A stretch of 44,380 nt of DNA from Candidatus Shapirobacteria bacterium. GTDB taxonomy: Bacteria > Patescibacteriota > Microgenomatia > UBA12405. Under the pieces are notes generated by a model. It was not told the DNA's origin, did no database searches, and saw only the letters and a list, made by a program, of their open reading frames with translations. The stretch spans positions 142,187-186,566 of the forward strand of contig JAUYJS010000003.1 of NCBI GenBank assembly GCA_030698565.1. The letters are read 5' to 3'. Positions 7,860-39,300 of the stretch are shown here, one piece after another. The position numbers and the translations under genes are program-made. Position 1 is the stretch's first letter; each line of letters starts with the position of its first letter.

Positions 7860-10320
7860 TCATTTTCCCCGGCACATAAATTTCTTTGTTAATTATTTTA
7901 CCTTCAAGCCACGGTTTTACTCTATCATTTTCCTTGGCCATCTTTAAAATCTCTTCCTTTTCTTCTTGCCTATCCGTATCCAACTCAATTTGACCTCTCA
8001 CCTTACCATTAATTGCCACAGCAATAGTTACCTTTTCTTCTTTTAAATATTTTTCATCTATCTTTGGCCATTCACTCACATGAACCGAACCATAATTTTC
8101 ATCACTCTTTTCTAACTGTGAATATAACTCTTCAGCAGTATATGGTGCAAATGGAGCAATTAGCTTAATTAAAGTCTGAATCGATTTCAAATTTATATTT
8201 TCTTTTAATGCCGTCAAACTATTTAACGCCTCCATACTTTTAGCAATGGCTGTATTAAATTTGAAGCTATCTATATCCTCAGTCACTCCTTTAATTAATT
8301 TATTAATTATCACTTCAGCATTTTGACTGCTAACAGTCTCATTACTACTCTGATTATTTATCTGTCCCTTAATAAATAACTCAAACCTATCTAAGAACCT
8401 TTTTACCCCCATAAGAGTATTTTCATTCCAAGCCATCGTCCCATCAAATGGTCCGATAAACATCAAATACATCCTCACCACATCAACCCCGTATTTCTCA
8501 GCTACAACCTCGGGCACAATTACATTACCTTTTGATTTACTCATCCTCTGACCATCAGGACCTAAAATAACACCGTGTGACAATCTTTTAAAATAAGGCT
8601 CATCGACTGGCACTTTGCCTAAGTCATACAAAAACTTGTAAATAAATCTAGAATAAAGCAAGTGTAAAGTGTTATGCTCATCCCCACCAATATATACATC
8701 CACTGGCATCCAATACTTCATCTTCTCAAAATCAGCAAAAGTTTTTTCATTAAATGGATCAATGTATCTCAAAAAGTACCAGTCCGACCCAGCCCAGTTA
8801 GGCATTGTGTCCGTTTCCCGCTTGGCTGGTTCACGACAAATAGGACAAACTGTATCAACCCAACCTGGTATCAGTGATAAAGGACTTTCTCCATTATCTG
8901 TTGGTTCATAATTCTCCACTTCCGGTAATTTAATTGGTAATTCCGTTTCTGGCACCGGTTGCCAATTACACTTCTCACAATAAACCATAGGTATTGGCTC
9001 ACCCCAATAATGTTGTCGGCTAAAGATCCAATCTCTCAAATGATAAGACGACTTAGCCTCACCAATTTCTTTTTCCTGTAACCAGTCAATCATTTTTTTA
9101 ATAGCATCTGCTGGCTTCATACCATTTAAAAAATCCGAATTAATTATTTTCTCTTCATCATCATAAACACTAATTATTTCCAATCCAAATTTTTCTGCAA
9201 ATTCTTTATCCCTATCATCATGGGCTGGCACGCCCATAATTGCTCCAGTCCCGTAATTTGGCAACACAAAATCAGAAATCCAAATTGGAATTTCTTTTCC
9301 GGTCGCTGGATTAAGGACATACAAACCAGAAAATACTCCAGTTTTTCCTTTGGTTAATTCGGTTCTCTCTAGATCACTTTTCTTCCGTACATTTTCAACA
9401 TAATTTTTGATTTTCTGTAGGGGCGATTCATGAATCGCCCCTACATTATTATTTAAAATTTCATCAACTAATTCATGCTCCGGTGCAACCACCATAAACG
9501 TCGCCCCAAACATAGTGTCCGGTCGGGTGGTAAAAATTTCCAAATGTTGTAGGGGCGATTCATGAATCGCCCCTACAATTTTAAATTTCACATTCGCCCC
9601 TTCCGATTTCCCAATCCATTTAATTTGGGCTTGTTTGACTTTTTCAATAAACGCCGTCTTGTCTAATCCCTCAATTAATTTATCAGCATAGTCAGTAATC
9701 TTAACTACCCATTGATCAATATTCCTTCGACTCACTTCAGTTCCGCATCTCTCACATCTACTATTGACCACCTCTTCGTTAGCTAATCCAATTTTACACG
9801 AGGGACACCAATTAATCGGCATCTTTTTTTTGTAGGCCAATCCAGCTTTAAATAATTGAATAAAAATCCATTGAGTCCATTTATAATATTTAGGGTCTGT
9901 TGTGTTAACTTCCCGGCTCCAATCAAATGAAAAAGCCAATTGTTTCATTTGGGATTTGAATTTATCAGTATTATCTTTAGTTACTTTTTGTGGTGGCTGT
10001 TTGGTTTTGATCGCATAGTTTTCTGTTGGCAATCCAAACGCATCCCAACCCATGGGAAACATCACATTAAATCCACTCATTCTCTTGAATCTGGCATAGA
10101 CATCAGCCCCGGTAAAACTAAAAGCATGACCGACATGCAATCCACTACCCGACGGGTATGGAAATTCCACTAAAATATATTTCTTATCTGTACGCACAGA
10201 CCCTTGTGTCTGTGCTTTCTTTGAACAGACACTACGGTCTGTTCCTACAAAATCATTCGCTCTATACAATTCCGGATGCTTTTCCCAAAATTCTTGCCAC
10301 TTTTTTTCATTCTCTACCAT
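7840..10320 (-). CDS. leuS: Leucyl-tRNA synthetase carrying four in-frame palindromic-element insertions
   Basis: HIGH motif (GLHVGH), KMSKS, TTRPDTMFG editing-domain motif, WxFSRQHYWGEP. Confidence 0.92.
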   Translation of the reverse strand: MVENEKKWQEFWEKHPELYRANDFVGTDRSVCSKKAQTQGSVRTDKKYILVEFPYPSGSGLHVGHAFSFTGADVYARFKRMSGFNVMFPMGWDAFGLPTENYAIKTKQPPQKVTKDNTDKFKSQMKQLAFSFDWSREVNTTDPKYYKWTQWIFIQLFKAGLAYKKKMPINWCPSCKIGLANEEVVNSRCERCGTEVSRRNIDQWVVKITDYADKLIEGLDKTAFIEKVKQAQIKWIGKSEGANVKFKIVGAIHESPLQHLEIFTTRPDTMFGATFMVVAPEHELVDEILNNNVGAIHESPLQKIKNYVENVRKKSDLERTELTKGKTGVFSGLYVLNPATGKEIPIWISDFVLPNYGTGAIMGVPAHDDRDKEFAEKFGLEIISVYDDEEKIINSDFLNGMKPADAIKKMIDWLQEKEIGEAKSSYHLRDWIFSRQHYWGEPIPMVYCEKCNWQPVPETELPIKLPEVENYEPTDNGESPLSLIPGWVDTVCPICREPAKRETDTMPNWAGSDWYFLRYIDPFNEKTFADFEKMKYWMPVDVYIGGDEHNTLHLLYSRFIYKFLYDLGKVPVDEPYFKRLSHGVILGPDGQRMSKSKGNVIVPEVVAEKYGVDVVRMYLMFIGPFDGTMAWNENTLMGVKRFLDRFELFIKGQINNQSSNETVSSQNAEVIINKLIKGVTEDIDSFKFNTAIAKSMEALNSLTALKENINLKSIQTLIKLIAPFAPYTAEELYSQLEKSDENYGSVHVSEWPKIDEKYLKEEKVTIAVAINGKVRGQIELDTDRQEEKEEILKMAKENDRVKPWLEGKIINKEIYVPGKMINFLIS
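9417..9444. repeat. Family A palindrome GTAGGGGCGATTCATGAATCGCCCCTAC inside leuS
   Basis: Perfect 28-nt palindrome, translated as VGAIHESPLQ (NNNVGAIHESPLQKIK). Confidence 0.9.
9549..9576. repeat. Family A palindrome inside leuS (second copy)
   Basis: Identical 28-mer, translated VGAIHESPLQ just N-terminal of the TTRPDT editing motif. Confidence 0.9.
10190..10215. repeat. D-like hairpin GTACGCACAGAC-CCTTGT-GTCTGTGC inside the leuS N-terminus
   Basis: 8-bp stem; encodes AQTQGSVRT on the coding strand. Confidence 0.75.
10223..10248. repeat. Family D hairpin GAACAGAC-N6-GTCTGTTCCTAC inside the leuS N-terminus
   Basis: Same element as the intergenic copies at 25546, 32248 and 34039. Encodes VGTDRSVCS between the N-terminal helix and the HIGH region. 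Confidence 0.85.
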
Positions 10321-10367
10321 AGCTAGTATTCTACTATAAAAAACAAAAAAGGTGATATATTTTATAT

Positions 10368-13005: not shown

Positions 13006-13559
13006 AAACCGATTTGATCTTTTATTTTTAAAAACATTTTTTCAGCAATCCCCGGCACCAATTTTATTTCCTCAACGCTTTTAAACCCGCCATTTTTTGT
13101 CCGATAATCAATTATCTTTTGGGCCAAGCTCGGACCAACTCCTGATAATTTATCCAATTCCTCTAAACTTGCGTTATTGATCCCAATCTGTAGGGGCGAT
13201 TCATGAATCGCCCCTACATTAGGTATAAAAATCTTCTGCCCATCATTCAAAATCTGCGCTTGGTTAATATTTTTTTCGACCCATTCCAAATCTGCCTCCG
13301 CCGACAAACCACCAGCCATTACCAATATCTCGCTTATCCTTGAACCCCGGTCTAATTTATAAACTCCTGGTTTAATCACCTCGCCCTCTATATCAATAGT
13401 TACTTTATTATCAACTTGTACATCACTTTTTATTAACTCGACTTTCTCAGTTGGCATTAGTTTCTCTTTAAAATTAATTCCAACTCCTACTGCAACCAAA
13501 CCAATTCCTAGTAATAACATCATGTCTATCCATTTCCAGTTTTTAGTAATTTTTATCAC
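13002..13559 (-). CDS. comEA: ComEA DNA receptor (SLBB plus helix-hairpin-helix) with one in-frame palindrome
   Basis: GEVIKPGVY SLBB motif, C-terminal LSGVGPSLAQKIIDYR HhH motif; ATGA overlap with comEC. Confidence 0.8.
   Translation of the reverse strand: MIKITKNWKWIDMMLLLGIGLVAVGVGINFKEKLMPTEKVELIKSDVQVDNKVTIDIEGEVIKPGVYKLDRGSRISEILVMAGGLSAEADLEWVEKNINQAQILNDGQKIFIPNVGAIHESPLQIGINNASLEELDKLSGVGPSLAQKIIDYRTKNGGFKSVEEIKLVPGIAEKMFLKIKDQIGL
13190..13217. repeat. Family A palindrome inside comEA
   Basis: Identical 28-mer, translated VGAIHESPLQ in the linker between the SLBB and HhH domains. Confidence 0.9.
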
Positions 13560-15025: not shown

Positions 15026-15931
15026 ATGAGTAGTTTTAATATTTCATTAACTCCAGCCCAATTCGAATTTACCGCCCAGCCCGGAGCTACTATTATCCAA
15101 GCTTACGAAATTACCAATAACTCCGATAATACGATTTTTTTGTCTTCTTCAGTCGAACCCTGGATCCCCTCAGGAATTGATGGCAACGTTAGTTACGCCA
15201 ATATCATTGCCAACCCAAAAATTATTTTTTCTCTCAATAATGCTGACTTGAATTTAGGACAAGGCTTTAATCTTCAACCTCAAGAAAAACGTCAACTGGT
15301 TTTAAAAATCAAAGTCGACCCACAATCCGAGCTTAAAGATCATTATTATACTTTTTTTATTAACCAAACTTCAATCGGTACACTCGAAAGTCAGCAAAAT
15401 TCTACCCAGGCCAGCGGTAAAATTGGTTCTCACATTCTTTTATCTGTTTCCAATTCCGAACAACAATCAAGTAAGGCTGAAATAAAAAATTTTAAAGTTT
15501 TTCCCAAAATAAAAGATATATTTTTAACTCCGATAAACTTCCAAGCCGAGATCAATAATAGCACTGATTATTTTTTTAAAACTGACGGCCAAATTACCAT
15601 CAACAAAAACGATCTCAAAACTAATGAAACAAGATTAATGCCCAGTAATATTTTGGCTCACCATTCCCGTTCCATTTCTTGTATCGCCAACTCCACTGAT
15701 CCCAAAGCACCGCCAACCAGTGTTAATTGCACTCTCAATCCACCTCTTTGGCCTGGATCTTATACCGCCACACTTTCACTCGACCCCTCGATCAGTAGTA
15801 AACCAATCACCGTCTCCTTTTTTGTCTTTCCGTTTTCTTTGATTGGGTTACTTGGTATTATTTTTATTTTATTTTGGATTTTAAAGACCCATCCTTCTGT
15901 ACGGGCGATTCATGAATCGCCCCTACAATAA
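15026..15931 (+). CDS. Surface-operon protein P2, beta-rich ectodomain with a C-terminal TM anchor; tail encoded by a repeat element
   Basis: C-terminal helix FSLIGLLGIIFILFWIL. The last residues THPSVRAIHESPLQ and the stop lie in the family A element. Confidence 0.6.
   Translation: MSSFNISLTPAQFEFTAQPGATIIQAYEITNNSDNTIFLSSSVEPWIPSGIDGNVSYANIIANPKIIFSLNNADLNLGQGFNLQPQEKRQLVLKIKVDPQSELKDHYYTFFINQTSIGTLESQQNSTQASGKIGSHILLSVSNSEQQSSKAEIKNFKVFPKIKDIFLTPINFQAEINNSTDYFFKTDGQITINKNDLKTNETRLMPSNILAHHSRSISCIANSTDPKAPPTSVNCTLNPPLWPGSYTATLSLDPSISSKPITVSFFVFPFSLIGLLGIIFILFWILKTHPSVRAIHESPLQ
15899..15926. repeat. Family A palindrome variant (GTACGGG...)
   Basis: 27/28 identity to the consensus; supplies the last 10 codons of P2. 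Confidence 0.85.
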
Positions 15932-15965: not shown

Positions 15966-16039
15966 GTAGGGGCGACCCTGGCGGTCGCCCTATTATCTAA
16001 TCCATATTTATTCAGGGCGGGGGCTAGCCCCGCCCCTAC
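15966..16039. mobile_element. REPIN-like composite: hairpin B plus a ~21-nt AT spacer plus hairpin C, with inverted GTAGGGGCG...CGCCCCTAC ends
   Basis: B is GGGGCGACC-CTGGC-GGTCGCCC; C is GGGCGGGG-GCTAGC-CCCGCCC. The same ~74-nt unit recurs at 19930, 32163 and 33094. Confidence 0.75.
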
Positions 16040-19929: not shown

Positions 19930-20003
19930 GTAGGGGCGACCCTGGCGGTCGCCCCATTATTTGATCCATTATTATTCAGGGCGGGGGCTAGCCCCGCCCC
20001 TAC
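19930..20003. mobile_element. REPIN-like composite B+C (copy 2)
   Basis: GTAGGGGCGACCCTGGCGGTCGCCCC-ATTATTTGATCCATTATTATTC-AGGGCGGGGGCTAGCCCCGCCCCTAC. Confidence 0.8.
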
Positions 20004-20014
20004 AGAATCAAAAA

Positions 20015-25297: not shown

Positions 25298-25314
25298 TTT
25301 TAATATTATCCAAC

Positions 25315-25571
25315 GTAGAGACGCACTGTGTGCGTCTCTTTATTTAAAATAAATATTTTATTGTTTGTAGAGACGCATACAATGCGTCTCTACAAAACAC
25401 AACATATCCAATGTAGGGGCGATTCATGAATCGCCCCTACCAACCCGTCATTGCGAGGACAAAGGACGAAGCAATCCCATTCTGTGTAGAGACGCGCTGC
25501 AGCGCGTCTCTACAAATATTCCACCAAATATTTGTTTTTTTCAATGAACAGACACAACGGTCTGTTCCTAC
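25315..25571. repeat. Ordered array of six hairpins: E, E, A, F, E, D
   Basis: E 25315-25339, E 25367-25393, A 25413-25440, F 25447-25478 (GTCATTGCGAGGACAAAGGACGAAGCAATCCC), E 25486-25513, D 25546-25571. Confidence 0.85.
25318..25345 (+). terminator. Intrinsic terminator formed by a family E hairpin plus a T-tract, downstream of G1
   Basis: GAGACGCAC-TGT-GTGCGTCTC followed by TTTATTT, about 20 nt after the G1 stop. Confidence 0.55.
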
Positions 25572-25802: not shown

Positions 25803-26090
25803 ATGAAACAAAGAAAATATACTTCTTTTGAAGAATATCTTAAAAAAAGTCTTAAAAATCCTGATTTTAAAAAAGTCTGGGATGATTCTGAAACCGAATA
25901 TCAACTTTCTCGACAAATAATTAAAAAGCGATTAAAAAATAAATTGACTCAACAAGATCTTGCCAAAAAAGCCAACACCACTCAAACGATTATTTCCCGA
26001 ATTGAATCAATGAATGGCAACCCCTCTTTACACTTTCTCAAAAAAATCGCCACCGCCCTCGACGCCAAGTTAAGTATTTCAATAAAATAA
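25803..26090 (+). CDS. XRE-family HTH antitoxin (HigA-like)
   Basis: LTQQDLAKKANTTQTIISRIESMNGNPSL HTH; the C-terminus LKKIATALDAKLSISIK nearly matches 33543-33839. Confidence 0.7.
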   Translation: MKQRKYTSFEEYLKKSLKNPDFKKVWDDSETEYQLSRQIIKKRLKNKLTQQDLAKKANTTQTIISRIESMNGNPSLHFLKKIATALDAKLSISIK

Positions 26091-26102
26091 TTCAAAGGGA
26101 TT

Positions 26103-26375
26103 TCATTCTAATCTCACCACCAATTTACTTCCCAAAGCACTCGCCACTTTCTTTAAAAAATCCAAACTTGGATTTACATCCCCCATTTCAAATCTAGATA
26201 ATGCCGATTGAGTTGTTCCCATCTTTTTTGCCAATTCTTTTTGAGTAATTTTCTTTTGATTTCTAATTCTAACCATATCACTCAATATCTGATACTCTAC
26301 TTCCAAACCATCATAGGTCTTTTTTACTTCAGAATTATTTAATATTTCTTTTTTTATTGTTTCCCAGTTATCCAT
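26103..26375 (-). CDS. XRE-family HTH antitoxin (HigA-like), second paralogue
   Basis: ITQKELAKKMGTTQSALSRFEMGDVNPSLDFLKKVASALGSKL. Confidence 0.7.
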   Translation of the reverse strand: MDNWETIKKEILNNSEVKKTYDGLEVEYQILSDMVRIRNQKKITQKELAKKMGTTQSALSRFEMGDVNPSLDFLKKVASALGSKLVVRLE

Positions 26376-26572: not shown

Positions 26573-26610
26573 GAACAGACACAAAGGGGCGATTCATGAA
26601 TCGCCCCTAC
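26573..26610. repeat. Chimeric hairpin: left half of family D fused to family A lacking its GTA
   Basis: GAACAGACACAAA|GGGGCGATTCATGAATCGCCCCTAC. Confidence 0.7.
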
Positions 26611-26621: not shown

Positions 26622-26738
26622 ATGTTATCCTTTTTATACACACTTATGCCTCGTAATAAACCCACCACTAACATTAGATCCCCCTTTTTGAGGTCGTTAG
26701 ATCCTCGAAGAGGAGGGATTATAGGGGGTTTTAAATGA
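26622..26738 (+). CDS. 38-codon upstream ORF ending in an ATGA overlap with the G2 start
   Basis: MLSFLYTLMPRNKPTT... The first 11 codons are identical to the G1 N-terminal extension; AGGAGG lies about 18 nt upstream of ATG 26735. Confidence 0.3.
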   Translation: MLSFLYTLMPRNKPTTNIRSPFLRSLDPRRGGIIGGFK

Positions 26739-29700: not shown

Positions 29701-32035
29701 TGTAAATGGCATTATTCGCGGCACAGGGACCCATTCAGGGGCCAGTTGGAACAGTTATCCTCCTGGAGTTTCACCCAGCATTGGTGATCACCATTATTAT
29801 TCTAATTCAAAATTTTTTTCAGGGATCATCGACGATGTCAAAATTTATAACTACCCTCGCAACCAAAGACAAATTATCGAAGACATGAACGCCGGCCACC
29901 CTATTGGCGGCTCCCCGGTCGGTTCCCAACTAGCTTATTGGAAAATGGACGAAGGCTATGGATCAACCACCAACAATTCCGGCTTTGGAGGTTCTGTTTT
30001 AAATGGTACTTTTGGCACCGGCAACTCCGCCCCCACCTGGACTAATAATGGTAAGTTCAACAAAGCTTTAAGTTTCGATGGCGGGGATTATACAACCATT
30101 AGTGATAATCCTGCCCTCGATATAGGTTATTCGGGTAGCATTTCCATTTCAGTTTGGTACTACTCTACTACTGCTGATACTAATACCCATACTATTTTAG
30201 CCAAACGCCAAACCGACTCCAGCACTAATACAGATTATATATTATTTATTTCAAATAATTATTTAACCTGGGGGACAGGAGATTCAACTGATTCTGTCGC
30301 CTGGATGTCCATTACTGAGCCATCCAGAAACCAATGGCATCAGATAGTTGCTGTCTTGTCTCGTGATACCAGTCTAACAGGAACAAAATATTTATATGTT
30401 GATGGAAATTTAGTTTCTTCTGGAACTTATGCAACTAAAGCTAATGCAACCAGCACTCCATTATATATCGGTAAATATAATGGAAGTGGAGCTTTTTGGG
30501 AAGGCCTTATTGATGAAGTTAAAATTTACAACACAGCCTTAACTGCTGAAGATATCAAACTAGATTATAATCGAGGTTCTGCCATAGTTATGGGCAATTT
30601 AGGAACCAATTCATCAGGCGCTGTCGATGCTTCTTCAAATAGATCATACTGTATCCCCGGCGATACTTCGACCTGCAACCCCCCAGTCGGCGAATGGAAA
30701 TTTGAGGAAGGTGTGGGGACTACTGCTTATGATACCAGCGGCAATAATAATAATGGAATTTGGCAAGGCACACTTGGCAATCAATGGTCCCAAGGTAAAA
30801 TTGGTAAAGCCGGTAGTTTTAATGGCGCCAATAATTATATTTTAGGAACAAACAATTTAGGAATTTCCGGAAATGCAGAATTTACCATGTGTGCCTGGAT
30901 GAAATGGATCGGAATTTCATGGCCATCAGATTATCCATCATTTATGGGAAACAATTCAACCGGCTCTACCAATAACGGATTAAGTTTTACTGTTTATCAA
31001 GGCAGACCTGCAATTGATTTTTGGGTAAATCGTTGGCGAGCCTCAAACGCCTTATCTTTAAATACTTGGTATTATGTTTGTGGTACTAAAACAGCCGGAA
31101 CAATTTCAACCACATCAAAAATTTATGTAAATGGACAGCTAGTTTCAGGAGCAGTGGAAGGAACTGACACAACACCAAATATTACCGATTCACCTCCTGT
31201 AATAGGAAGGTTAGACGGAACACGTTGGTTTCAAGGTCTCATCGATCAAGCAGAATACTTTAACTACGCCCGCACACCAGCTCAAGTCGCCTGGGACTAC
31301 AACCGCGGTGGACCTGTGGGTCACTGGAAATTTGACGAATGCCAAGGATCTATAGTTTACGATTCTTCTGGTGTCGGCACCACTGGTGGTATATCAATTG
31401 GTACCTCTGGAACCCAAAATTCCCTTGGAACCTGTGCTGTTGGCACATCAGCAGCCTGGACCAATGGCGCTAGCGGTAAACTCAACTCATCGCTAAGTTT
31501 TGACGGAATCGACGACTATATAAACTTAGGAAACAATACCAACTTAAATCCTCAACAACACGGCTGGTCAACATCTTTCTGGGTTAAATCAAGTCAAAAG
31601 ACGAGTCAAAACGGTGGTTATGTTAGGGTTATGGGTAGAATTTCTGGAGGTGCTCCTTATTGGATATTGAGAACTCACACAAATAATGGAGATTATGCTG
31701 TTATGCAAATGTTAGATGCTAGTAGCAACAGTGGAGGTGTCAGCGGAACTAATACAGTTACTGATGGTGTTTGGCATCATCTTGTGTTCGTTTACGATTA
31801 TAATAATTCTAAGTCTTACATATATCTAGACGGAGTTAGGGATGGATATAACGACTGGACAGGAACAAGTATGGGTACTGTAAATCCGTCTCTTCCCCTA
31901 CATATAGGTCAGGCCAACGCTAATTCAGAATTCTTTTCCGGCCAAATTGATGATGTTCGTATTTATAATTACGCTCTCACCGCCACCCAAACCAAAACTC
32001 TTTACAATAATGGGGCTGTGAATTTTTCGAATTAA
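26735..32035 (+). CDS. Giant surface protein G2: TM anchor, DUF2341, canonical fibrinogen-related domain, six LamG domains
   Basis: Same architecture as G1. Fibrinogen-like motifs: SC..., YYVTPGG...IQVYCDM, TTTDADHDASGSNCANSYNYAWWYGSCWNGSFWG. Confidence 0.85.
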   Translation: MTRFSYKSLFIILFFLLIGIVALFKFYPQNKISAAWWNDGWGYRTRVDVTNSSGSDLSNQRIKITLNTSTLISTGKMQSDCDDIRVTSQSGKLLDHWVINCNSSSSSVYVKMEDLPSSGSNVFVYYGNPSVSNIENTLGSTNYPGTSCQMMRDQGSVTSDGLYYVTPGGNDDNKIQVYCDMTTDSSGWSLVLNHVSSSTPGPNPNWNQVVNNINTSGTYSSDLTSFSLFLGVKHWNYLGDYIRVEVGSSPTSITKRYDYTSFSLDTGNYYALTMSGETQITGTGSPGIYSYHNNRPLTTTDADHDASGSNCANSYNYAWWYGSCWNGSFWGSTVSHQDRAFWTGSTSDYHNYGGLWLKGDDSMENISTGTPATEEQSLAPIAYWKFDEGVGTTAYDSSSSALNGLISAATWQTEDQCMTGKCLYFNESTSYVSLGTNNTLTKNITNITISAWVKLGKDLGTVSDNYEIISNESYQNYGYLFRVENTTSTATAGKIHFRFSQAGASTNVTAQSNSFPNDHQWHYLVGTKNGTVGKIYLDGKEMTLSTNQSLSNPVDASGATQIGGISQRWNGFLDDVKVYPYARSATQIKQDYAAGKSHSSSTKGTSANLGSSNQNLSALTDGLIGYWKMDENVGTTTVDSSGNNNTATLGTGNSAPTWSPGKYGVGLSFNGTTNYIKVSYDASLKKPVSAITMGAWVKLNSTGGWQSVVQYPQQDGSHVSTYFDWAIYVGSGGGLHTRIDGESSGTYGTISWGEWTHVAIAWDGSSTLVKYYINGALVGTYDGTKTSIVYDNNNPVYFGQNAGGGEKLSGSLDEVRIYNRALSPSEVSQLYNWAPGPIGYWDFNENVGTTAYDKSGNNYSGSLGADNYSPTWDIGKYGSGLKFNGNQFVNLTRFANKGISVNLSNFTVSTFIKPTLINGNSKAIYVEGAGGSTGSSWAGIFLVNNEIRVHFKTYNTGDLILYDTVGANVTANNIYYITVTRTGNNFTTYVNGIIRGTGTHSGASWNSYPPGVSPSIGDHHYYSNSKFFSGIIDDVKIYNYPRNQRQIIEDMNAGHPIGGSPVGSQLAYWKMDEGYGSTTNNSGFGGSVLNGTFGTGNSAPTWTNNGKFNKALSFDGGDYTTISDNPALDIGYSGSISISVWYYSTTADTNTHTILAKRQTDSSTNTDYILFISNNYLTWGTGDSTDSVAWMSITEPSRNQWHQIVAVLSRDTSLTGTKYLYVDGNLVSSGTYATKANATSTPLYIGKYNGSGAFWEGLIDEVKIYNTALTAEDIKLDYNRGSAIVMGNLGTNSSGAVDASSNRSYCIPGDTSTCNPPVGEWKFEEGVGTTAYDTSGNNNNGIWQGTLGNQWSQGKIGKAGSFNGANNYILGTNNLGISGNAEFTMCAWMKWIGISWPSDYPSFMGNNSTGSTNNGLSFTVYQGRPAIDFWVNRWRASNALSLNTWYYVCGTKTAGTISTTSKIYVNGQLVSGAVEGTDTTPNITDSPPVIGRLDGTRWFQGLIDQAEYFNYARTPAQVAWDYNRGGPVGHWKFDECQGSIVYDSSGVGTTGGISIGTSGTQNSLGTCAVGTSAAWTNGASGKLNSSLSFDGIDDYINLGNNTNLNPQQHGWSTSFWVKSSQKTSQNGGYVRVMGRISGGAPYWILRTHTNNGDYAVMQMLDASSNSGGVSGTNTVTDGVWHHLVFVYDYNNSKSYIYLDGVRDGYNDWTGTSMGTVNPSLPLHIGQANANSEFFSGQIDDVRIYNYALTATQTKTLYNNGAVNFSN

Positions 32036-32052
32036 AATTAATATTATCCATT

Positions 32053-32325
32053 GTAGAGACGCGCTGCAGCGCGTCTCTACAAAACACAACATATCCAATG
32101 TAGGGGCGATTCATGAATCGCCCCTACCAAACGTAAACATTATATTTAATTCCGCCCATTCTGTAAGGGCGACCCTGGCGGTCGCCCCATTATTTGATCC
32201 ATTATTATTCAGGGCGGGGGCTAGCCCCGCCCCTACGTTTTTTTAATGAACAGACACAAAGGTCTGTTCCTACAATCATATTTCCCCATTTATCCGTCAT
32301 TGCAAGGACAAAGGACGAAGCAGAT
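32053..32325. repeat. Hairpin array E, A, B+C, D, F downstream of G2
   Basis: E 32053-32080, A 32100-32127, B+C 32163-32236, D 32248-32273, F-variant 32296-32325. Confidence 0.85.
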
Positions 32326-32847
32326 TTAATCTCGAATCATCTTTCTCTTTATCTCCACCACCCCAGTACAATTCCTCATCATTGCCCGACTTAATTTTTT
32401 CTCAAACCCAACATAAATTATTTTCTTTTTCACTACCTTTGCCTCCAATATTGCTGGAACAATATCTGTATCAGAAGAAATCAAATAACAAACATTATAC
32501 TCATTTTTTAAAGCTCCGGCGGTAATCTCCACCGCCATTTTTACGTCAACACCTTTTTCGTGATACTTACCGTCACTTTTCAACATAAAACCTTTATAAA
32601 CTTCAATTTTTTGTTGTTCTAAATTATAAAATAATGACTGTTGTTGAGCATACATTCCCTCTGCCTTTTTATTTCCAGATTCCCTCTTAATTTCTCCCAC
32701 ACAATATAATATTCTCATTCCTTTTTGCCCAACTACTTTTTCCACTAATTTTCGATAATTAAAATTTGTTAAATGAACTTCAGGACACAAATTTTTACTT
32801 CCATGATAAAAATTACTCCCATCTATTATTACCAATAATTTATCCAT
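32326..32847 (-). CDS. NYN-domain (LabA/DUF88-like, PIN-related) predicted RNase
   Basis: LVIIDGSNFYH..., EKGVDVKMAVEI, YLISSDTDIVPAI. ATG 32847 is preferred over the track's GTG 32862. Confidence 0.7.
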   Translation of the reverse strand: MDKLLVIIDGSNFYHGSKNLCPEVHLTNFNYRKLVEKVVGQKGMRILYCVGEIKRESGNKKAEGMYAQQQSLFYNLEQQKIEVYKGFMLKSDGKYHEKGVDVKMAVEITAGALKNEYNVCYLISSDTDIVPAILEAKVVKKKIIYVGFEKKLSRAMMRNCTGVVEIKRKMIRD

Positions 32848-32868
32848 AGTTAAATTTACCACAAAGCC

Positions 32869-32904: not shown

Positions 32905-32984
32905 GATTTAGCTTATTTAAGAACACCTTAATTCTATCAAGAATCTAAAAATAAACAATAATCAAACCCCTTTTTCTTTTGTCC

Positions 32985-33169
32985 ATAGAGACGCATACAA
33001 TGCGTCTCTATAAAACACAACATATCCAATGTAGGGGCGATTCATGAATCGCCCCTACCAAACGTAAACATTATATTTAATTCCACCCATTCTGTAGGGG
33101 CGACCCTGGCGGTCGCCCCATTTTGTTTAATTCATTTTTATTCAGGGCGGGGGCCAGCCCCGCCCCTAC
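32985..33169. repeat. Hairpin array E, A, B+C; a direct repeat of 32053-32236
   Basis: E-variant 32985-33011, A 33031-33058, B+C 33094-33169. The inter-hairpin spacers are also conserved (AAAACACAACATATCCAAT; CAAACGTAAACATTATATTTAATTCC). Confidence 0.85.
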
Positions 33170-33190
33170 CAAAAACCACATCTTAATTTT

Positions 33191-33208
33191 ATGTAATAAT
33201 AATTACAT
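33191..33208 (+). promoter_or_regulatory. Operator-like palindrome ATGTAAT-N4-ATTACAT overlapping the toxin start codon
   Basis: The same motif sits immediately upstream of the decayed toxin start (26528-26545). Confidence 0.4.
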
Positions 33209-33521
33209 GGAAACATTTTTTATTAACCCAGATTTAAGAGAATATATTTATTCATTGGATAAAGCGACATTATCAAAATTCATTAGATTATCTGATCTGT
33301 TAGAAACATATGGAGAAAAATTGGGCATGCCATATTCAAAAAAAATTCAGAAGAATCTTTATGAATTAAGAATCCATGGTCAACGCGAAATCCGCGTATT
33401 TTATTGTTTCTATCGAGACAAAACTGTTTTTGTCCACGCAATTATTAAAAAATCCAGAAAAACACCAACTCAAGACATAAAAACAGCAATGATAAGAATT
33501 AAACAATTAACAAACATATAA
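33207..33521 (+). CDS. Intact Gp49/HigB-type toxin (RelE/ParE superfamily)
   Basis: 104 aa; LYELRIHGQREIRVFYCFYRDKTVFVHAIIKKSRKTP is typical of phage Gp49-like (DUF891) toxins. The track start at 33123 lies inside hairpin C. Confidence 0.7.
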   Translation: METFFINPDLREYIYSLDKATLSKFIRLSDLLETYGEKLGMPYSKKIQKNLYELRIHGQREIRVFYCFYRDKTVFVHAIIKKSRKTPTQDIKTAMIRIKQLTNI

Positions 33522-33536
33522 CATATATGTTATAAT
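33517..33536 (+). promoter_or_regulatory. 18-bp perfect palindrome TATAACATATATGTTATA overlapping an extended -10 (TGTTATAAT), 7 nt before the antitoxin ATG
   Basis: Read directly; the spacing implies a leaderless or near-leaderless antitoxin transcript. Confidence 0.35.
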
Positions 33537-33542
33537 AAGCTT

Positions 33543-33839
33543 ATGAAAATTTCAAATAAAATAAATCTCGTCCCTTTTTCTGAATTCAAAAAGAAAGCTC
33601 TTATGGATCCTGAAATCAAAGCCGAATATGATCGGCTTGGGCCAGAATACGAAATCATCGAAGCAATTATTCGTAAACGACTTGAAATTGGTATTTCCCA
33701 AAAACAATTAGCCGAAAAAATGGGCACCAAACAATCAGCTCTCTCCCGTCTGGAATCCGGTAACTACAATCCATCTCTCGCATTTCTAAAAAAAGTTGCC
33801 GCCGCCCTCGACGCCAAGCTAAGTATCTCAATGAAATAA
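33543..33839 (+). CDS. XRE-family HTH antitoxin (HigA-like) of the intact module
   Basis: ISQKQLAEKMGTKQSALSRLESGNYNPSLAFLKKVAAALDAKLSISMK. Confidence 0.75.
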   Translation: MKISNKINLVPFSEFKKKALMDPEIKAEYDRLGPEYEIIEAIIRKRLEIGISQKQLAEKMGTKQSALSRLESGNYNPSLAFLKKVAAALDAKLSISMK

Positions 33840-33853
33840 AAAAACACCCTATC

Positions 33854-34181
33854 GTAGGCGCAGACCTTTGTGTCTCTGCCCAAACAACAAATTTTTCAAA
33901 TTAAAATTAATATTATCCAACGTAGAGACGCGCTGCAGCGCGTCTCTTTATTTAAAATAAATATTTTATTGTTTATGAGAGACGCATACAATGCGTCTCT
34001 ACAAAAAAATCCCACCCATTTTTAATTTATTTTTTAATGAACAGACACAAGGGTCTGTTCCTACAAATATTATTTTCCGATTTATTAATACGCCATTGCG
34101 AGGAGGCTTTGCGACGACCTGCCTGCCGGCAGGCAGGAGCAATCCCATTGTCTGTAGAGACGCGCTGCAGCGCGTCTCTAC
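33854..34181. repeat. Hairpin array: D-like, E (with T-tract), E, D, long F, E
   Basis: 33854-33880, 33922-33947, 33977-34002, 34039-34064, 34093-34148 (contains the nested CCTGCCTGCCGGCAGGCAGG), 34154-34181. Confidence 0.85.
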
Positions 34182-34404
34182 AAAATATCAAATTTTATTC
34201 CCCTATCCCATAATCTTATCTTCTAATTTTCTCCAAAATAGCTCAAAAATAAGAATAATCTTTGAATTCCCCCAACTTCCAGTTTACATTCGCCCAACCT
34301 CGTCATTGGCAACCGCCAACATAGATTGCCAACATTTCTCAGAAAACTAATTACAACTACATCACAAACTCTCTTTGAAGTTCAAACAGCCATCCAACCC
34401 ATAA

Positions 34405-35778: not shown

Positions 35779-35782
35779 CACC

Positions 35783-36295
35783 ATGGACACTGCTCTAAAC
35801 ACCACACTAGAACCATTCAGACTTTGGTTACAAAATAAAAACCTATCTTCATCAACTGTTCGCAATTATGTAGTCGACGTTAATAAATATCTAAAATTTA
35901 TTGACAACAAATACGGACAGCTCGCCAAACAATCCCATCTTCAGTACGGACAGGTCGCGACCTGTCCCTACACAGAATCAAATCTCGAGCAATATATCTC
36001 CTCCATTTCCTCCGACCCCAACAACTCTCGCTATTTAGCTTCCCTAAATAAGTTTTGCCAATTCGCCCTAGATCAAAAACTAATCAAATCAAATCCAATA
36101 AAAAAAATTCTCCATCGTCGTAAAAGTGATTCACAACCTGTCCTAAATACAGAAAACTTAATTTCCCAATATCAAAAACACCTGATTCACAAAAATTTCT
36201 CCCAAAACACTATAAAAAACTATATCAATGACATACACCAGTTTATAAATTGGGCAGAAAAAAACAATCGCCCTGTTAAGGGAGATGTCACGTAG
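35783..36295 (+). CDS. Protein made of two tyrosine-recombinase N-terminal SAM-like (core-binding) modules, with no catalytic domain
   Basis: FRLWLQNKNLSSSTVRNYVVDVNKYLKFI and YQKHLIHKNFSQNTIKNYINDIHQFINW match the Phage_integrase N-terminal SAM-like pattern. Ends at TAG TGA, in the same frame as the next ORF. Confidence 0.6.
   Translation: MDTALNTTLEPFRLWLQNKNLSSSTVRNYVVDVNKYLKFIDNKYGQLAKQSHLQYGQVATCPYTESNLEQYISSISSDPNNSRYLASLNKFCQFALDQKLIKSNPIKKILHRRKSDSQPVLNTENLISQYQKHLIHKNFSQNTIKNYINDIHQFINWAEKNNRPVKGDVT
35944..35971. repeat. Family G palindrome GTACGGACAGGTCGCGACCTGTCCCTAC, in-frame in CDS 35783-36295
   Basis: 28 nt with one arm mismatch; translated YGQVATCPY. Confidence 0.75.
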
Positions 36296-36300
36296 TGACA
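36286..36300. repeat. Small palindrome TGTCAC-GTA-GTGACA carrying tandem in-frame stops TAG TGA
   Basis: Stops at 36293-36298 separate two ORFs that share one reading frame. Confidence 0.7.
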
Positions 36301-36313
36301 GAGGGTTTGTTCA

Positions 36314-39300
36314 ATGAATTTAAAATTTAACCAATCGCAATTCGACCAATATGCGGCTTTTCTAAAAAGCACCGATGCTTCTCCAGCCTCAATTCAAAGA
36401 AAGCTATCCTCCCTCGCTTCTTTCCAAAAATTTTTAATCAAAAAGAAATATATTTCTCCTCCTGTACGGGCGATTCATGAATCGCCCGTACATTCCATTA
36501 CCTCAAAAAAATTTTTCATCCCTTTTTCAAAATATCTTATTATAGCTAGTTTAATCATTATTGCCTCTGGTCTTCTTTATGGCCTTTATACCCAAACCAT
36601 ACTCAAAGCTCAAAAGAACTTAGCTTATTCCACCATTGCCAGTCCAGCTCGACCAGGCCGCTCCTTGTCATTTCAAGGACGACTGACCGATTCTTCAGGT
36701 AATCCAATAAGTTCATCGACCGGTATTATTTTTAGGCTTTACGATACAGCCGCTGTCGGCACAGGCACTTCTCTTTATTCTTCTGACATTGGCAACTCTC
36801 AAACAGTAACACCGGACGAAAACGGAATTTTTTCAGTGGTTATTGGCACCACTCACGGCACCGAAATTTCCGAATCTGTTTTTTCCGAGAACACTGCTGT
36901 GTATTTAGAAATTACCGCCGGCAGTGAAACCATGTCTCCTCGTCAACAAATTGCCACTGTCGCCTATGCTCTGAACGCAGAAACATTACAGGGACTGCCT
37001 CCCTCTGCTAGCGGTCTAAAAGATACTGTCATGGTGATCGACGCTCTTGGTAATTTAAATTTAGGCGAAACTTCCCCTACTATCAAATCTGTCTCAGGTA
37101 CTTTTGCCATTGAAGGTCAAAGCCTACTTCTAAAAGCTTCTGATGGTTCTGGCGGTAACATCGAAATCAATCCCGATGCCGCCGGTATTATTAAACTCAC
37201 CACCGAAGGGGTTGGTACCACAGTTCAAGGCTTTATTTCTGCCACCAACGCCAACTTAACCACGGGTAATTTATACGAAGGCGTCATCAACAATACCAAT
37301 CGCAATTACAACTTTTTAGAATTCAAAAATTACGATGTCGGTACCAGCACTATTGCTTCTCGTTTTACTGTTACAGCCGGGGGTAATGTTACTGCAGGTG
37401 GAAATCTTTCGGTGGGCATTGGCATTACCTCTCCTAAAATTACTCTCACCACTGGTGCTAACAATGGCTATCTACTCCAATCTGATGCCAATGGCACTGC
37501 TTCCTGGGTTTCCGCTTCTGGCATTGGTGGTACCTACACCGCGGGTAACGGTTTGACCCTTTCTGGTTCTCAATTCAAATTAGGCGGAGCCTTAACCGAA
37601 GCCACTAGACTAAATATTGGTTCAACTGAAGTCATGTATCTCTCCACCGCTGGCAATGTTGGCATCGGTGTTACCAATCCTATTGAAAAACTTCACATCA
37701 CAGGCAACATCCTCCAATCAAAATCATCTGATTCTGCTGGTGGTGCTGGTATTTATTTAGGAAGTGATACTGGAAGAAACTGGGGTCTAAGGAAAAGCAC
37801 TACCGGCAATAATTTTAATATCGATTACTATAACAGTTCTTGGAACACAGCTCTTTCAATTCTAAATTCAAATGGCAATATCGGCATCGGTACCACCAAC
37901 CCTCTTTCCAAACTCTACATTTCTGATGTTGGTTTCACTGGTAATTTCTTAACCATCAACGACGGATCTTCCGATCTTGTCAATATCTCTTCTGTCCAAT
38001 CTACTTTCAACAATCCAACTTCCTTCACCTCTGCTGGTGATGTATCAATTGCTTATGACTTAAATTTCACCAACCCCACAGCCTCTTATATCAAATCTTC
38101 TGCACCCATCTACCTTCAATCTGGCGAATCTTTCAATTCTTCTGATTTAATTCTTAGGACTTTTAATGCTGGCGACATTGTCCTCGATGCCGCCGGCGGA
38201 GTCACCCTAGCCCAAGCCCAAAACTGGAATTTGGCCACTTCCACCACCGCCCTAAATGTTCAATCCGGTTTATTAAATTTAGATACAACAAACGGTCGGG
38301 TTGGCATTGGCACTACTAGTCCTGAAGCCGCCCTAGATATCAAAAATGTTTTGACTTTAGACAAAACTGGTTCAGCTAGTGTGATTTTAAATGCTACTGC
38401 CGGAGGATGGTTCTATTTCCAACGTGCCGGAAATAATGAGTTAACTATTAACAATTTAGGCAATGTCGGTATTGGTACTGCCAATCCTCTTTACAAACTC
38501 GAAGTTAATGGTTCTCTTCTTGCCACTACCATTGGTGCTGGTGCTACTGACCCTAATTATTCTTTGTATACCAATGGCAAGTTTGGTGTCGGTTCTACCG
38601 CTTACTTTGCTTCTTATGTGGGTATTGGGACGACGAGTCCAGGTGCAAAGTTAGAAATCAATTCAGCAGCGAATGGATCAGGATATGGATTGAAAATAAA
38701 CACAAATACCAGAACTACAGGCGAGGGGTATATTTGGTTAGGTGACGCCACTACACCTGATTTTTATATAAATACAACTGGCAACGTCGGCATCGGCACC
38801 ACCAACCCCACCCACCTTTTACAAGTCAGCAAGACCACCACTGGAGACGATTATGGCATCAAGGTTATTACCGATGGTGTTTCTTATGATACTGGCATTC
38901 TCATCGGCCGATCCGCTGTCAATGGTGCCGGCATCCGAATGGTCACCGGCACTACCGATTATTTAGGCTTTATGGTCAGCGGTTCTACTTTGCCGGCCTT
39001 CACCACCACTGCCCAAATGGTTCTTAATGAAAGTGGCAATGTGGGTATAGGTACCACCAATCCTGGTTACAAACTCGAAGTTAATGGTTCTCTTTTAGCT
39101 ACCACCATTGGTGCTGGTGCCACTGATCCTAATTATTCTCTTTACACTAATAGTAAATTTGGTGTCGGTTCTACCGCTTACTTTGCTTCTTATGTGGGGA
39201 TTGGGACTACAGGACCAACCGAAAAACTCGATGTGAGCGGTTCTGTCAACGCAACAGATATTAAGATAAGTACTCAATCTCTAGATGCAAGATACAAGAA

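What the first reader, a model, noticed from the sequence alone, without database searches (positions are those of the whole stretch)
9417..36491. Only one reading frame of the 28-nt palindrome is stop-free, and every coding copy uses it
- Frame 1 reads GTA GGG GCG ATT CAT GAA TCG CCC CTA C and is open.
- Frame 2 starts with TAG, and frame 3 contains TGA (AGG GGC GAT TCA TGA).
- The element is a perfect palindrome, so the same holds on both strands.
- All five coding copies (leuS x2, comEA, P2 at 15899, giant ORF at 36464) are in frame 1. They give V-(G/R)-A-I-H-E-S-P-(L/V)-(Q/H).
- This is the signature of purifying selection filtering random insertions, or of an element evolved to be tolerated in proteins.
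- The copy at 36464 has compensatory changes in both arms (GTACGGG...CCCGTAC), which implies selection on the hairpin itself.
Basis: seen in the sequence. Interest (0 to 1): 0.75.

Follow-up and report, generated by a model that had tools for sequence, protein, structure and literature searches.

The report
REP hairpin repeats inside protein genes
The 28-base palindrome is an already described kind of small mobile repeat, a "double-foot" GTAG REP that travels with a RayT-type transposase; here, in a Candidatus Shapirobacteria genome, it often survives inside genes because only one of its reading frames can be translated.

Summary
The window holds nine copies of GTAGGGGCGATTCATGAATCGCCCCTAC, where none is expected by chance. 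Five lie in real open reading frames, and all five are read GTA GGG GCG ... (VGAIHESPLQ).

That all five share one frame follows from logic alone. Frame 2 starts with TAG and frame 3 contains TGA, so an intact gene can only carry the element in frame 1.

The element is a GTAG-tagged "double-foot" REP, the cognate repeat of a RayT/TnpA-REP transposase clade (Quentin 2018 subclass 2.4).
- In another genome (L207), exact copies flank such a transposase gene and a third sits inside it.
- That inner copy is in frame 1, between the HUH and Tyr motifs, as in almost all of the closest RayT relatives.
- In-frame REPs inside host genes, including tRNA synthetases, were reported by Di Nocera in 2013.

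Comparison with relatives shows the leuS copies are lineage-specific. They sit in surface loops that are insertion hot spots across Microgenomates.

The 36464 copy is weak evidence for selection on the hairpin, because single-arm GTAC variants are commoner. Better evidence exists: a Ser-to-Leu change in the element is paired with a synonymous GCG-to-GCA change that restores the palindrome.

Verdict: a real feature, a new member of a known kind, of moderate to low interest. No transposase gene lies in this window.

The parts
9417..9444 (.). Exact 28-nt double-foot REP inside leuS (minus strand), frame 1, LeuRS residues 293-302 (VGAIHESPLQ), called site 2
   Evidence: It is absent at this site in L204, and L121 carries a different insert there. 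L122 keeps it as GTAG...GTAC. In the model it is a loop between helices 283-291 and 298-311, with pLDDT about 62.
9549..9576 (.). Exact 28-nt REP inside leuS, frame 1, LeuRS residues 249-258, called site 1
   Evidence: The close relative L121 has only GTAGGGGGTGGA here. In the model it is the loop of a beta hairpin between strands 238-249 and 259-264. The site is an insertion hot spot in 120 homologs.
13190..13217 (.). Exact 28-nt REP inside comEA (minus strand), frame 1, residues 115-124, in the linker between the SLBB and HHH domains
   Evidence: An orthologous copy is present in L121, whose contig starts exactly at the element. L204 and L206 have a different linker there.
15899..15926 (.). 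Variant GTAC...CTAC that forms the last 10 codons of ORF 15026-15931; the TAA stop follows 2 nt later
   Evidence: Relatives end ...GVRKFKKPKPPLI instead, so the element replaced the C-terminal tail after the transmembrane helix.
25413..25440 (.). Exact intergenic copy, 116 nt after the stop of giant ORF 19961-25297; part of a duplicated 88-nt composite unit
   Evidence: D17
26583..26610 (.). Intergenic copy with only one tag (AAAG...CTAC), upstream of giant ORF 26735-32035
32100..32127 (.). Exact intergenic copy inside a BIME-like cluster of four different GTAG hairpins (32051-32236)
33031..33058 (.). Exact intergenic copy in a second copy of the cluster (32974-33170)
36464..36491 (.). Variant GTAC...GTAC in frame 1 of the giant ORF (ATG at 36314), residues 51-60, between an N-terminal SAM-like domain and a transmembrane helix
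10190..10248 (-). REPIN-like doublet of another GTAG family (GTAG-GAACAGAC..GTCTGTTC, spacer, GCACAGAC..GTCTGTGC-GTAC) in frame in leuS, LeuRS residues 25-44
   Evidence: It folds as one long hairpin, z = -5.8. It is absent in L121. pLDDT is below 50 for residues 26-42. The N-terminal site is a hot spot in homologs.
35944..35971 (+). GTACGGACAGGTCGCGACCTGTCCCTAC, another REP family, inside ORF 35783-36295 and read in frame 2 (YGQVATCPY); this is possible only because the tag is GTAC and not GTAG
   Evidence: The same family sits in frame 3 inside the WecG gene of L122 and is absent from the window ortholog.
32021..32236 (+). BIME-like mosaic of four GTAG hairpin families. Related clusters lie at 25283-25515, 32974-33170, 33890-34194, 15966-16039 and 19930-20003.
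7840..10320 (-). leuS (826 aa), an intact host gene with three REP-derived inserts

Best explanation
**What it is.** The 28-mer is a "double-foot" GTAG-tagged REP: a G+C-rich hairpin with GGG/CCC at the bottom of the stem, GTAG at the 5' end and CTAC at the 3' end. It belongs to the REP family cognate to one clade of RayT/TnpA-REP tyrosine (HUH) transposases, Quentin 2018 subclass 2.4, which is Bertels group 4.

**How it spreads (inferred).** By analogy with E. coli TnpA-REP and IS200/IS605, the transposase recognises the folded single-stranded hairpin together with the GTAG guide. It then cuts and rejoins it, which spreads copies around the genome.

**Why coding copies are in frame 1.** This Candidatus Shapirobacteria genome is 88% coding, so many insertions fall in genes. 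The tag gives TAG in frame 2 and the loop gives TGA in frame 3. Only frame-1 insertions survive, and only at permissive places: surface loops, domain linkers and C-terminal tails. There they add about ten residues, VGAIHESPLQ.

**Why the palindrome is maintained.** It is maintained at the DNA level because the hairpin is what the transposase recognises.

**Shown versus inferred.**
- Shown: the identity of the repeat class, its association with RayT genes elsewhere, its presence or absence among relatives, its location in loops, and the frame logic.
- Inferred: that a RayT mobilises it in this particular genome, and the biochemical mechanism.
For: **Anatomy.**
- 9 copies against 0 expected.
- Stable hairpin: DNA -14.4 and RNA -21.9 kcal/mol, z about -8.
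- The window holds many sister GTAG hairpin families, arranged in BIME-like clusters.

**Link to RayT.**
- L207 is a textbook REPtron. A RayT gene (3001-3528) has exact 28-mers at 2893 and 3538 and a third exact copy inside at 3274, in frame 1.
- L014 likewise has an upstream copy (one mismatch) and an exact internal copy.
- 120 loci from many phyla were fetched only because they contain the 20-nt core. Three of them have the element inside a RayT ORF, directly after the HUH motif.
- A profile search found at least 7,997 RayT relatives. Among the top 120, 114 carry a [VIRGT][GRA]AI[HRPQD]E[SL][PLS]-type peptide; in every one of the 85 whose HUH-to-'IIGRFK' segment could be delimited, a peptide of this type lies in that segment.
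- A syntenic Shapirobacteria relative (L204) encodes a RayT: Pfam Y1_Tnp 47.7 bits, and NCBIfam REP-associated tyrosine transposase 73 bits against a cut-off of 80.

**Published descriptions.**
- Quentin 2018 (PMC6006769) describes double-foot REPs, the patchy multi-phylum distribution, and in-frame REPs inside subclass 2.4 tnpA-REP genes.
- Di Nocera 2013 (PMC3733652) describes intragenic GTAG REPs, including in tRNA synthetases.

**Insertions rather than ancestral sequence.**
- L121 (88% nucleotide identity in leuS) lacks both leuS copies and the N-terminal doublet but keeps the comEA copy.
- The basal state at LeuRS site 1 is a 22-residue segment without an insert. Different REP families occupy the site in different lineages, confirmed at the DNA level in L204, L205 and L206.

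**Permissive sites.** All three LeuRS inserts are loops of lowered confidence in an otherwise good model. They fall at gaps against the T. thermophilus enzyme.

**The same 28-mer in frame 1 of real genes in other phyla.** Hosts include SMC, a Ser/Thr kinase, an amidase, a MurD-like ligase (two copies), a P-type ATPase and a prepilin peptidase.

**Hairpin constraint.** GCG/TCG changes to GCA/TTG as a compensated pair, and one side of the change is synonymous.
Against: - No RayT gene lies in the 44-kb window. The rest of the 186-kb contig and of the genome could not be read.
- The RayT seen in the relative L204 carries other REP types, not this 28-mer.
- No clean empty-versus-filled pair was found, so no target-site rule could be derived. 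Net length differences are +18, about +30 and -21 nt at different sites.
- L121's "empty" site 1 carries GTAGGGG. This could be a footprint of a lost copy or a pre-existing target.
- NCBIfam scores the L204 protein just under its cut-off.
- The RayT profile search was biased toward proteins that carry the motif, because the query contained it. An unbiased search with the motif-free L204 RayT found other REP-encoded peptides at this site and none with AIHES.
Confidence: 0.8

Rival explanations
1. **Pre-adaptation through the transposase gene.** Frame 1 is open not merely by luck plus filtering. A copy of the REP resides in frame 1 inside the RayT gene itself, between HUH and Tyr. Any variant with a frame-1 stop would therefore kill its own transposase. 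Progeny copies inherit translatability, which makes in-frame insertions in host genes unusually harmless. This adds to the main explanation rather than excluding it.
For: - The internal RayT copy is in frame 1 in L207, L014, L049 and L058, and in L208-L210 for the Leu variant.
- 114 of the top 120 RayT relatives carry the peptide.
- The fraction of coding copies in the window (5/9) fits near-complete tolerance of frame-1 insertions.
Against: - The direction of cause is unknown. The REP may simply have inserted into a permissive loop of RayT, as it does in other genes; Quentin 2018 reads it that way.
- Nothing shows that the internal copy is a source of new copies.
- Other REP families use frames 1, 2 (with GTAC) and 3 in host genes.
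- The search that produced the 114/120 figure was biased toward the motif.
Confidence: 0.3
2. **Domesticated function.** The hairpins inside genes act in the mRNA (ribosome pausing, stability), or the added peptide does something useful in LeuRS, ComEA and the other hosts. On this view the copies are kept by positive selection.
For: - The hairpin is very stable as RNA.
- An orthologous comEA copy is retained in L121 and the leuS site-2 copy in L122.
Against: - Close relatives lack the leuS copies.
- Unrelated REP families, and also no insert at all, occupy the same loops in other lineages.
- The host proteins are unrelated to each other.
- The inserts map to low-confidence loops and tails.
Confidence: 0.05
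3. **Chance or artefact.** The identical 28-mers in many phyla are coincidental members of a vast set of GTAGGGGCG...CGCCCCTAC hairpins, or the copies inside genes are assembly chimeras at repeats.
For: - Many hairpin families share the same tag and stem bottom.
- Contigs L121 and L122 break at or near copies.
Against: - The exact 28-mer co-occurs with one RayT clade in four or more unrelated taxa.
- Independent assemblies agree on the orthologous copies.
- L123 matches the window with 0 mismatches over 5,354 nt.
- All host ORFs stay intact and in frame.
Confidence: 0.02

Closest known systems
Double-foot GTAG REPs associated with TnpA-REP subclass 2.4 / RAYT group 4 (Quentin et al. 2018, PMC6006769)
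   Same: - GT[AG]G at the 5' end and its complement at the 3' end.
- Three G-C pairs at the foot of the stem.
- Patchy distribution over many phyla.
- Copies flank the transposase gene, and a copy lies in frame inside it between HUH and Tyr.
   Different: - Host lineage: Candidatus Shapirobacteria (Patescibacteria, the Candidate Phyla Radiation or CPR), which does not appear in the passages of that paper I read.
- About half of the copies in the window are intragenic.
- The cognate transposase was not seen in this window.
Intragenic GTAG/CGTC REPs (Di Nocera et al. 2013, PMC3733652)
   Same: - Single REPs or dimers inserted in frame in genes of known function, including tRNA synthetases.
- Some hosts are hit twice.
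- Copies occur at N- and C-termini.
- The TAG of the tag can act as a stop codon.
   Different: - That survey covered cultured genomes such as O. terrae and R. conorii.
- Here the same loops of LeuRS are hit recurrently by different REP families across a whole CPR class.
Rickettsia palindromic elements, RPE (Ogata et al. 2000; cited in PMC3733652; details partly from my own knowledge)
   Same: Selfish palindromic repeats inserted in frame in essential genes of a small genome, and tolerated at surface positions.
   Different: - RPE-1 is about 100-150 bp, against 28-30 nt here.
- There is no sequence relation.
- RPE-1 has no known GTAG tag or RayT link.
REPINs and RAYTs of Pseudomonas (Bertels and Rainey 2011, PMC3116915) and E. 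coli REP/BIME with TnpA-REP (Messing 2012, PMC3479197; Corneloup 2021, PMC8266576)
   Same: - Hairpin plus GTAG guide.
- Inverted doublets as the unit; the leuS N-terminal doublet and the L205 doublets look like this.
- Mosaic clusters.
- A single-copy Y1 transposase.
   Different: - Those REPs are imperfect palindromes with a tag at one end, and are almost entirely extragenic.
- They belong to other RAYT groups (2 and 3).

Membership tests
GTAG-tagged double-foot REP (TnpA-REP subclass 2.4 type) | Short (20-40 nt) G+C-rich stem-loop | tested here: met
   The 28-nt perfect palindrome (30 nt with the flanking T and A) folds into a 13-bp stem with a 4-nt loop, z about -8.
GTAG-tagged double-foot REP (TnpA-REP subclass 2.4 type) | 5' GT[AG]G at the foot of the stem and C[TC]AC at the 3' end, with three consecutive G-C pairs at the stem bottom | tested here: met
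   The element reads GTAG-GGG...CCC-CTAC in 6 of 9 window copies. Of 128 cross-phylum copies, 75 have GTAG and 79 have CTAC.
GTAG-tagged double-foot REP (TnpA-REP subclass 2.4 type) | Dispersed multicopy family, often in clusters or inverted dimers | tested here: met
   There are 9 copies in 44 kb, BIME-like clusters with other GTAG hairpins, and doublets in leuS of the window and of L205. The genome-wide copy number is unknown.
GTAG-tagged double-foot REP (TnpA-REP subclass 2.4 type) | Copies flank a RayT/TnpA-REP gene (REPtron) | tested here: met
   This is met for the sequence family: L207 has exact copies on both sides of a RayT gene, and L014 has one upstream. It is not seen in this window, and the rest of this genome was not available.
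GTAG-tagged double-foot REP (TnpA-REP subclass 2.4 type) | An in-frame REP inside the tnpA-REP gene between the HUH and Tyr motifs | tested here: met
   Seen in L207, L014, L049, L058, L208 and L210, and as the peptide in 114 of the 120 closest RayT relatives.
GTAG-tagged double-foot REP (TnpA-REP subclass 2.4 type) | Cleavage and mobilisation by the cognate transposase | not testable with these tools
   This needs biochemistry or strain-resolved population data.
Repetitive extragenic palindromes in the strict sense | Extragenic location | tested here: not met
   5 of 9 copies are inside ORFs. Published surveys already allow intragenic REPs.
Rickettsia palindromic elements (RPE-1) | Palindromic unit of about 100-150 bp, Rickettsia-specific sequence families | tested here: not met
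   The unit is 28-30 nt and the host is a Shapirobacteria genome. It works in a similar way but is not a member.
MITE | 70-300 bp with terminal inverted repeats and target-site duplications | tested here: not met
   The element is 28 nt and no duplication is visible at any junction.
Intrinsic terminator | G+C-rich hairpin followed by a run of T | tested here: not met
   The flanks are ACATTATT, ACAATTTT, ACCAACCC and the like, with no T run, and five copies are translated.

The most novel reading that the evidence does not exclude
The REP and its transposase may be coupled through the reading frame. One copy is translated in frame 1 inside the RayT gene, so the repeat is kept stop-free in that frame. 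Every daughter copy is then pre-adapted to be a harmless ten-residue loop. In Candidate Phyla Radiation genomes, which have almost no intergenic space, REPs would then become a steady source of new surface loops in essential proteins, with LeuRS as a recurrent hot spot. Insertion may also be aimed at pre-existing GTAG sites. Two hints point that way: L121 has GTAGGGG at the empty leuS site, and L204 has GTGGTAGAGG at the comEA site.
Probability: 0.25. Interest if true: 0.55.

Novelty: new member of a known kind. Interest (0 to 1): 0.3.

Why it matters
- **Annotation.** It explains odd G+C-rich ten-residue peptides (VGAIHESPLQ and its relatives) that interrupt conserved proteins in Patescibacteria and many other phyla. 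These should be annotated as REP insertions, not as protein motifs.
- **Assembly.** Metagenome contigs tend to break at these repeats (L121 starts exactly at one; L122 starts 17 nt from another).
- **Evolution.** Recurrent hits by different REP families on the same LeuRS loops give a natural map of insertion-tolerant sites in an essential enzyme.
- **Mechanism.** The frame link between a REP and its own transposase is a testable idea about how a selfish repeat stays harmless.

None of this changes the known picture of REP/RayT systems.

Tried and rejected
1. **E. coli RayT probe.** A sequence recalled from memory, used as a phmmer probe on all loci, found almost nothing. A real Shapirobacteria RayT from L204 worked.
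2. **Neighbouring ORFs.** A Pfam scan of 150 ORFs next to the element in other phyla showed only unrelated housekeeping genes and no enriched family. This is expected for a dispersed repeat.
3. **Metagenome scan for LeuRS loci.** It returned mostly distant taxa (46-59% identity) with none of these elements. It therefore gave no strain-level empty sites.
4. **Exact-protein look-up of MreB.** It returned only the same genome (L123, 0 mismatches).
5. **Chance coincidence across phyla.** I first explained the identical 28-mer in many phyla as coincidence within a huge hairpin superfamily. I dropped this after finding the RayT link.
6. **A simple excision footprint in L121.** Deleting 18 nt from the filled allele still leaves 4 of 5 mismatches. 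The question stays unresolved.
7. **Target-site duplication or fixed insert size.** None is consistent across sites.
8. **Rfam.** Only two tRNAs were found in the window.
9. **Alternative genetic code (TGA read as sense).** Rejected, because comEA ends in TGA and the ORFs behave under table 11.
Full report
**1. The observation**

The 28-nt palindrome GTAGGGGCGATTCATGAATCGCCCCTAC occurs nine times in the window with at most three mismatches. None was found in 100 dinucleotide-preserving shuffles.
- Six copies are exact.
- 15899 is GTAC...CTAC.
- 26583 has a tag on one side only.
- 36464 is GTAC...GTAC.

Read directly, frame 1 is open, frame 2 begins with TAG and frame 3 contains TGA. The same holds on both strands because the sequence is its own reverse complement.

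Five copies lie in open reading frames, and all are in frame 1:
- LeuRS residues 249-258 and 293-302.
- ComEA residues 115-124.
- The last ten codons of ORF 15026-15931.
- Residues 51-60 of a giant ORF that starts at ATG 36314 and runs off the window.

The hosts are real genes.
- LeuRS aligns with the T. thermophilus enzyme at E = 4e-204.
- ComEA has SLBB and HHH_3 domains.
- ORF 15026-15931 is conserved in relatives.
- The N-terminus of the giant ORF resembles the integrase-SAM-like domains of the ORF just upstream.

The shared frame, however, is a logical necessity. A gene carrying the element in either of the other frames would no longer be an ORF.

In the GTAC variants the frame-2 TAG is lost. 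Frame 2 is then open as well, so "only one frame" does not hold for copies 36464 and 15899.

**2. What else is in the window**

The organism is a Candidatus Shapirobacteria (Patescibacteria / Candidate Phyla Radiation, CPR), judged from the LeuRS relatives. G+C is 38%.

The 28-mer is one of many G+C-rich hairpins that share a GTAG or CTAC tag:
- GTAGAGACGCGCTGCAGCGCGTCTCTAC
- GAGACGCATACAATGCGTCTC
- GTAGGGGCGACCCTGGCGGTCGCCCC
- GGGCGGGGGCTAGCCCCGCCCCTAC
- GGACAGGTCGCGACCTGTCC
- and others

Several of them stand together in mosaic clusters at 25283-25515, 32021-32236, 32974-33170 and 33890-34194. Three of the four intergenic copies of the 28-mer belong to a duplicated 88-nt composite.

Other families are also translated.
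- A doublet of two inverted hairpins (10190-10248) encodes LeuRS residues 25-44 and folds as one long hairpin.
- A GTAC-tagged copy at 35944 is read in frame 2 as YGQVATCPY. That would be impossible with GTAG.

**3. Insertions rather than ancestral sequence**

- L121 is 88% identical in leuS. It lacks both leuS copies and the N-terminal doublet.
  - At site 1 it has only GTAGGGGGTGGA.
  - At site 2 it has a different insert.
  - Its contig begins exactly at the orthologous comEA copy.
- L122 (93% identical) keeps the site-2 copy with one arm changed, GTAG...GTAC. It also carries a GGACAGG-family REP in frame 3 inside WecG. The window ortholog lacks that copy; the difference is +30 nt.
- Among 120 Microgenomates LeuRS sequences, the basal state at site 1 is a 22-residue segment (KIKDxxExLEVF). 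Many lineages carry different hairpin-encoded peptides there and at the N-terminal site.
- The DNA confirms GTAG palindromes at site 1 in three further relatives:
  - L204: GGGCGAATCATGATTCGCCC
  - L205: a GTAG...CTAC doublet
  - L206: GTAGAGACGCCATGCATGGCGTCTCTAC, in frame 3
- In an AlphaFold model (mean pLDDT 81.6) the three inserts are loops of lowered confidence:
  - residues 26-42 have pLDDT below 50;
  - residues 250-258 form the turn of a beta hairpin;
  - residues 292-297 lie between two helices.
- In ComEA the element replaces the inter-domain linker. In ORF 15026-15931 it replaces the C-terminal tail.

**4. Identity of the element**

They span Dehalococcoidia, Ignavibacteria, Clostridia, Acidobacteria, Proteobacteria, Nitrospirae and more, with G+C from 34 to 68%. 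Most copies carry the same GTAG and CTAC ends.

The link to a transposase came from L204, a syntenic Shapirobacteria contig. It encodes a Y1 HUH transposase:
- Pfam Y1_Tnp, 47.7 bits;
- NCBIfam "REP-associated tyrosine transposase", 73 bits against a cut-off of 80.

Used as a probe, it found homologs in three of the 120 loci. In all three the 28-mer lies inside the transposase ORF, in frame 1, directly after the HUH motif.

L207 shows the full arrangement. A RayT gene is flanked on both sides by exact 28-mers and has a third exact copy inside it.

A profile search found at least 7,997 relatives, which JGI names "REP element-mobilizing transposase RayT". In 114 of the top 120, a peptide of the VGAIHESPL/VGAIHELPL type (pattern [VIRGT][GRA]AI[HRPQD]E[SL][PLS]) is present; in all 85 of them whose HUH-to-IIGRFK segment could be delimited by pattern, a peptide of this type falls between HUH and the conserved ...RRKMLLPKIIGRFK segment.

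That search was biased, because the query contained the motif. An unbiased search with the motif-free L204 protein against 1.84 billion representatives gave 18,993 hits. None of the top 150 has AIHES. Most have other REP-encoded peptides at the same place, such as VGAGPRACP...GQPQGVAPT, VGATLVVA...RAGTRPAPT and GEHKVRPY.

So each RayT sub-clade carries its own REP type, and the VGAIHESPL sub-clade corresponds to this 28-mer.

**5. Comparison with the literature**

Quentin et al. 2018 (PMC6006769) describe exactly this for TnpA-Y1 subclass 2.4, which is Bertels RAYT group 4:
- "double foot" REPs with 5' GT[AG]G and 3' C[TC]AC;
- three G-C pairs at the stem bottom;
- a patchy multi-phylum distribution;

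Di Nocera et al. 2013 (PMC3733652) report GTAG REPs inside genes of known function, including tRNA synthetases. They also note that the tag's TAG often serves as a stop codon.

Two library searches (one including the term Patescibacteria) turned up no paper describing this in that group. The element is therefore a new member of a known kind.

**6. The selection arguments**

*Filtering.* The window is 88% coding.
- 5 of 9 copies in genes is fewer than random insertion predicts (p = 0.014).
- It fits the 72% expected if frames 2 and 3 are purged and frame-1 copies are tolerated (p = 0.28).
- The coding share is higher than in other phyla, where 20 of 111 copies lie in a long frame-1 ORF against 35% for random positions (Fisher p = 0.019).
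- The numbers are small and the copies are not all independent.

Eight of ten such ORFs from other phyla have clear Pfam domains: SMC, a protein kinase, an amidase, a MurD-like ligase with two copies, a P-type ATPase, a prepilin peptidase and others.

*Hairpin selection.* The 36464 copy alone proves little.
- GTAC occurs on one arm in five or six other copies.
- In 125 cross-phylum copies, single-arm changes in the four outer pairs (at least 31 copies) far outnumber compensated ones (4 copies).

Constraint on the stem is nevertheless evident.
- Sister families differ by paired changes.
- In RayT genes, the Ser-to-Leu variant (TCG to TTG) goes with the synonymous change GCG to GCA, which restores a perfect palindrome (L208/L209 and L210). 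A decayed copy in L211/L212 has three unpaired positions.

**7. How it most likely works**

- Shown:
  - the repeat class;
  - its tie to a RayT clade;
  - lineage-specific presence;
  - loop locations;
  - the frame logic.
- Inferred from published work on E. coli TnpA-REP and IS200/IS605: the transposase binds the folded single strand with its GTAG guide and cuts and rejoins it.
- Not shown: a RayT in this genome (none lies in the window), the insertion junction, or a target rule.

L121's GTAGGGG at the empty leuS site and L204's GTGGTAGAGG at the comEA site hint at targeting next to GTAG, or at deletion footprints. This remains open.

**8. Verdict**

This is a real and well-defined feature, and an already described kind of element.

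The most interesting residue is the idea that residence in the transposase gene keeps frame 1 open and pre-adapts the copies for life inside proteins. I give that about one chance in four.

Noticed in passing
window 19961-25297, 26735-32035, 36314-44380: Three giant ORFs of 1778 aa, 1766 aa and more than 2688 aa (the last runs off the window). They have many internal repeats; for example, a motif GNVGIGTTNP recurs about 20 times in the third ORF (D1-D3). REP clusters lie between them.
   Followed up: no
window 35783-36313: ORF 35783-36295 (two integrase-SAM-like domains) is in the same frame as the giant ORF that starts at 36314. Only TAG TGA and a few codons separate them. This could be a split gene or a gene pair.
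   Followed up: partly
window 5325-5398 and 5412-5483: Two tRNA genes on the plus strand. The 90-aa "ORF" at 5238-5510 on the minus strand is therefore spurious.
   Followed up: yes
L121:2898-5735 (site 1 of leuS): The allele without the element still reads GTAGGGGGTGGA and so shares 7 nt with the element's end. It is either a deletion footprint or a pre-existing GTAG target.
   Followed up: partly
L204:565-1128: The Shapirobacteria RayT gene itself carries two GTAG hairpins in frame: VGAGLVPAQ after the HUH motif and GGHKTRPY at the C-terminus.
   Followed up: yes
L049:5509-5569: Inside an Ignavibacteriales RayT gene, a full copy of the palindrome sits between the two halves of another copy (GTAGGGGCGATTC ... 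GAATCGCCCCTAC). This looks like a REP inserted into the centre of a REP.
   Followed up: no
RayT proteins P0131, P0136, P0155, P0163, P0209 and others: The REP-encoded segment is expanded into tandem runs (HELPLHELPLHESPIHESPI...), which suggests slippage at the half-palindrome.
   Followed up: no
L204:6435-7044: comEA of this relative is split into two ORFs by a frameshift in the linker, at the place where the window gene carries the REP.
   Followed up: no
window 25448-25480 and 34122-34150; LeuRS of P0011, P0013, P0084: Another widespread G+C-rich repeat (...GCGAGGACAAAGGACGAAGCAATCCC...) lies in the intergenic clusters. A peptide of similar type (ARNEVTKQS...PRND) sits at LeuRS site 1 in other lineages; that the two are the same repeat was inferred from the peptide, not checked at the DNA level.
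   Followed up: no
LeuRS homologs P0002, P0004, P0018, P0030, P0038, P0051: Some Microgenomates LeuRS proteins are 940-1000 aa long. They carry large inserts or fused domains such as NUDIX or an alpha/beta hydrolase. P0002 has about 120 extra residues in the editing domain.
   Followed up: no
window 25803-26375, 32326-32862, 33123-33839: Small toxin-antitoxin-like genes (Gp49/HigB-like with an HTH partner, a divergent pair of HTH genes, and an NYN-domain gene) are embedded in the REP-rich spacers between the giant ORFs.
   Followed up: no
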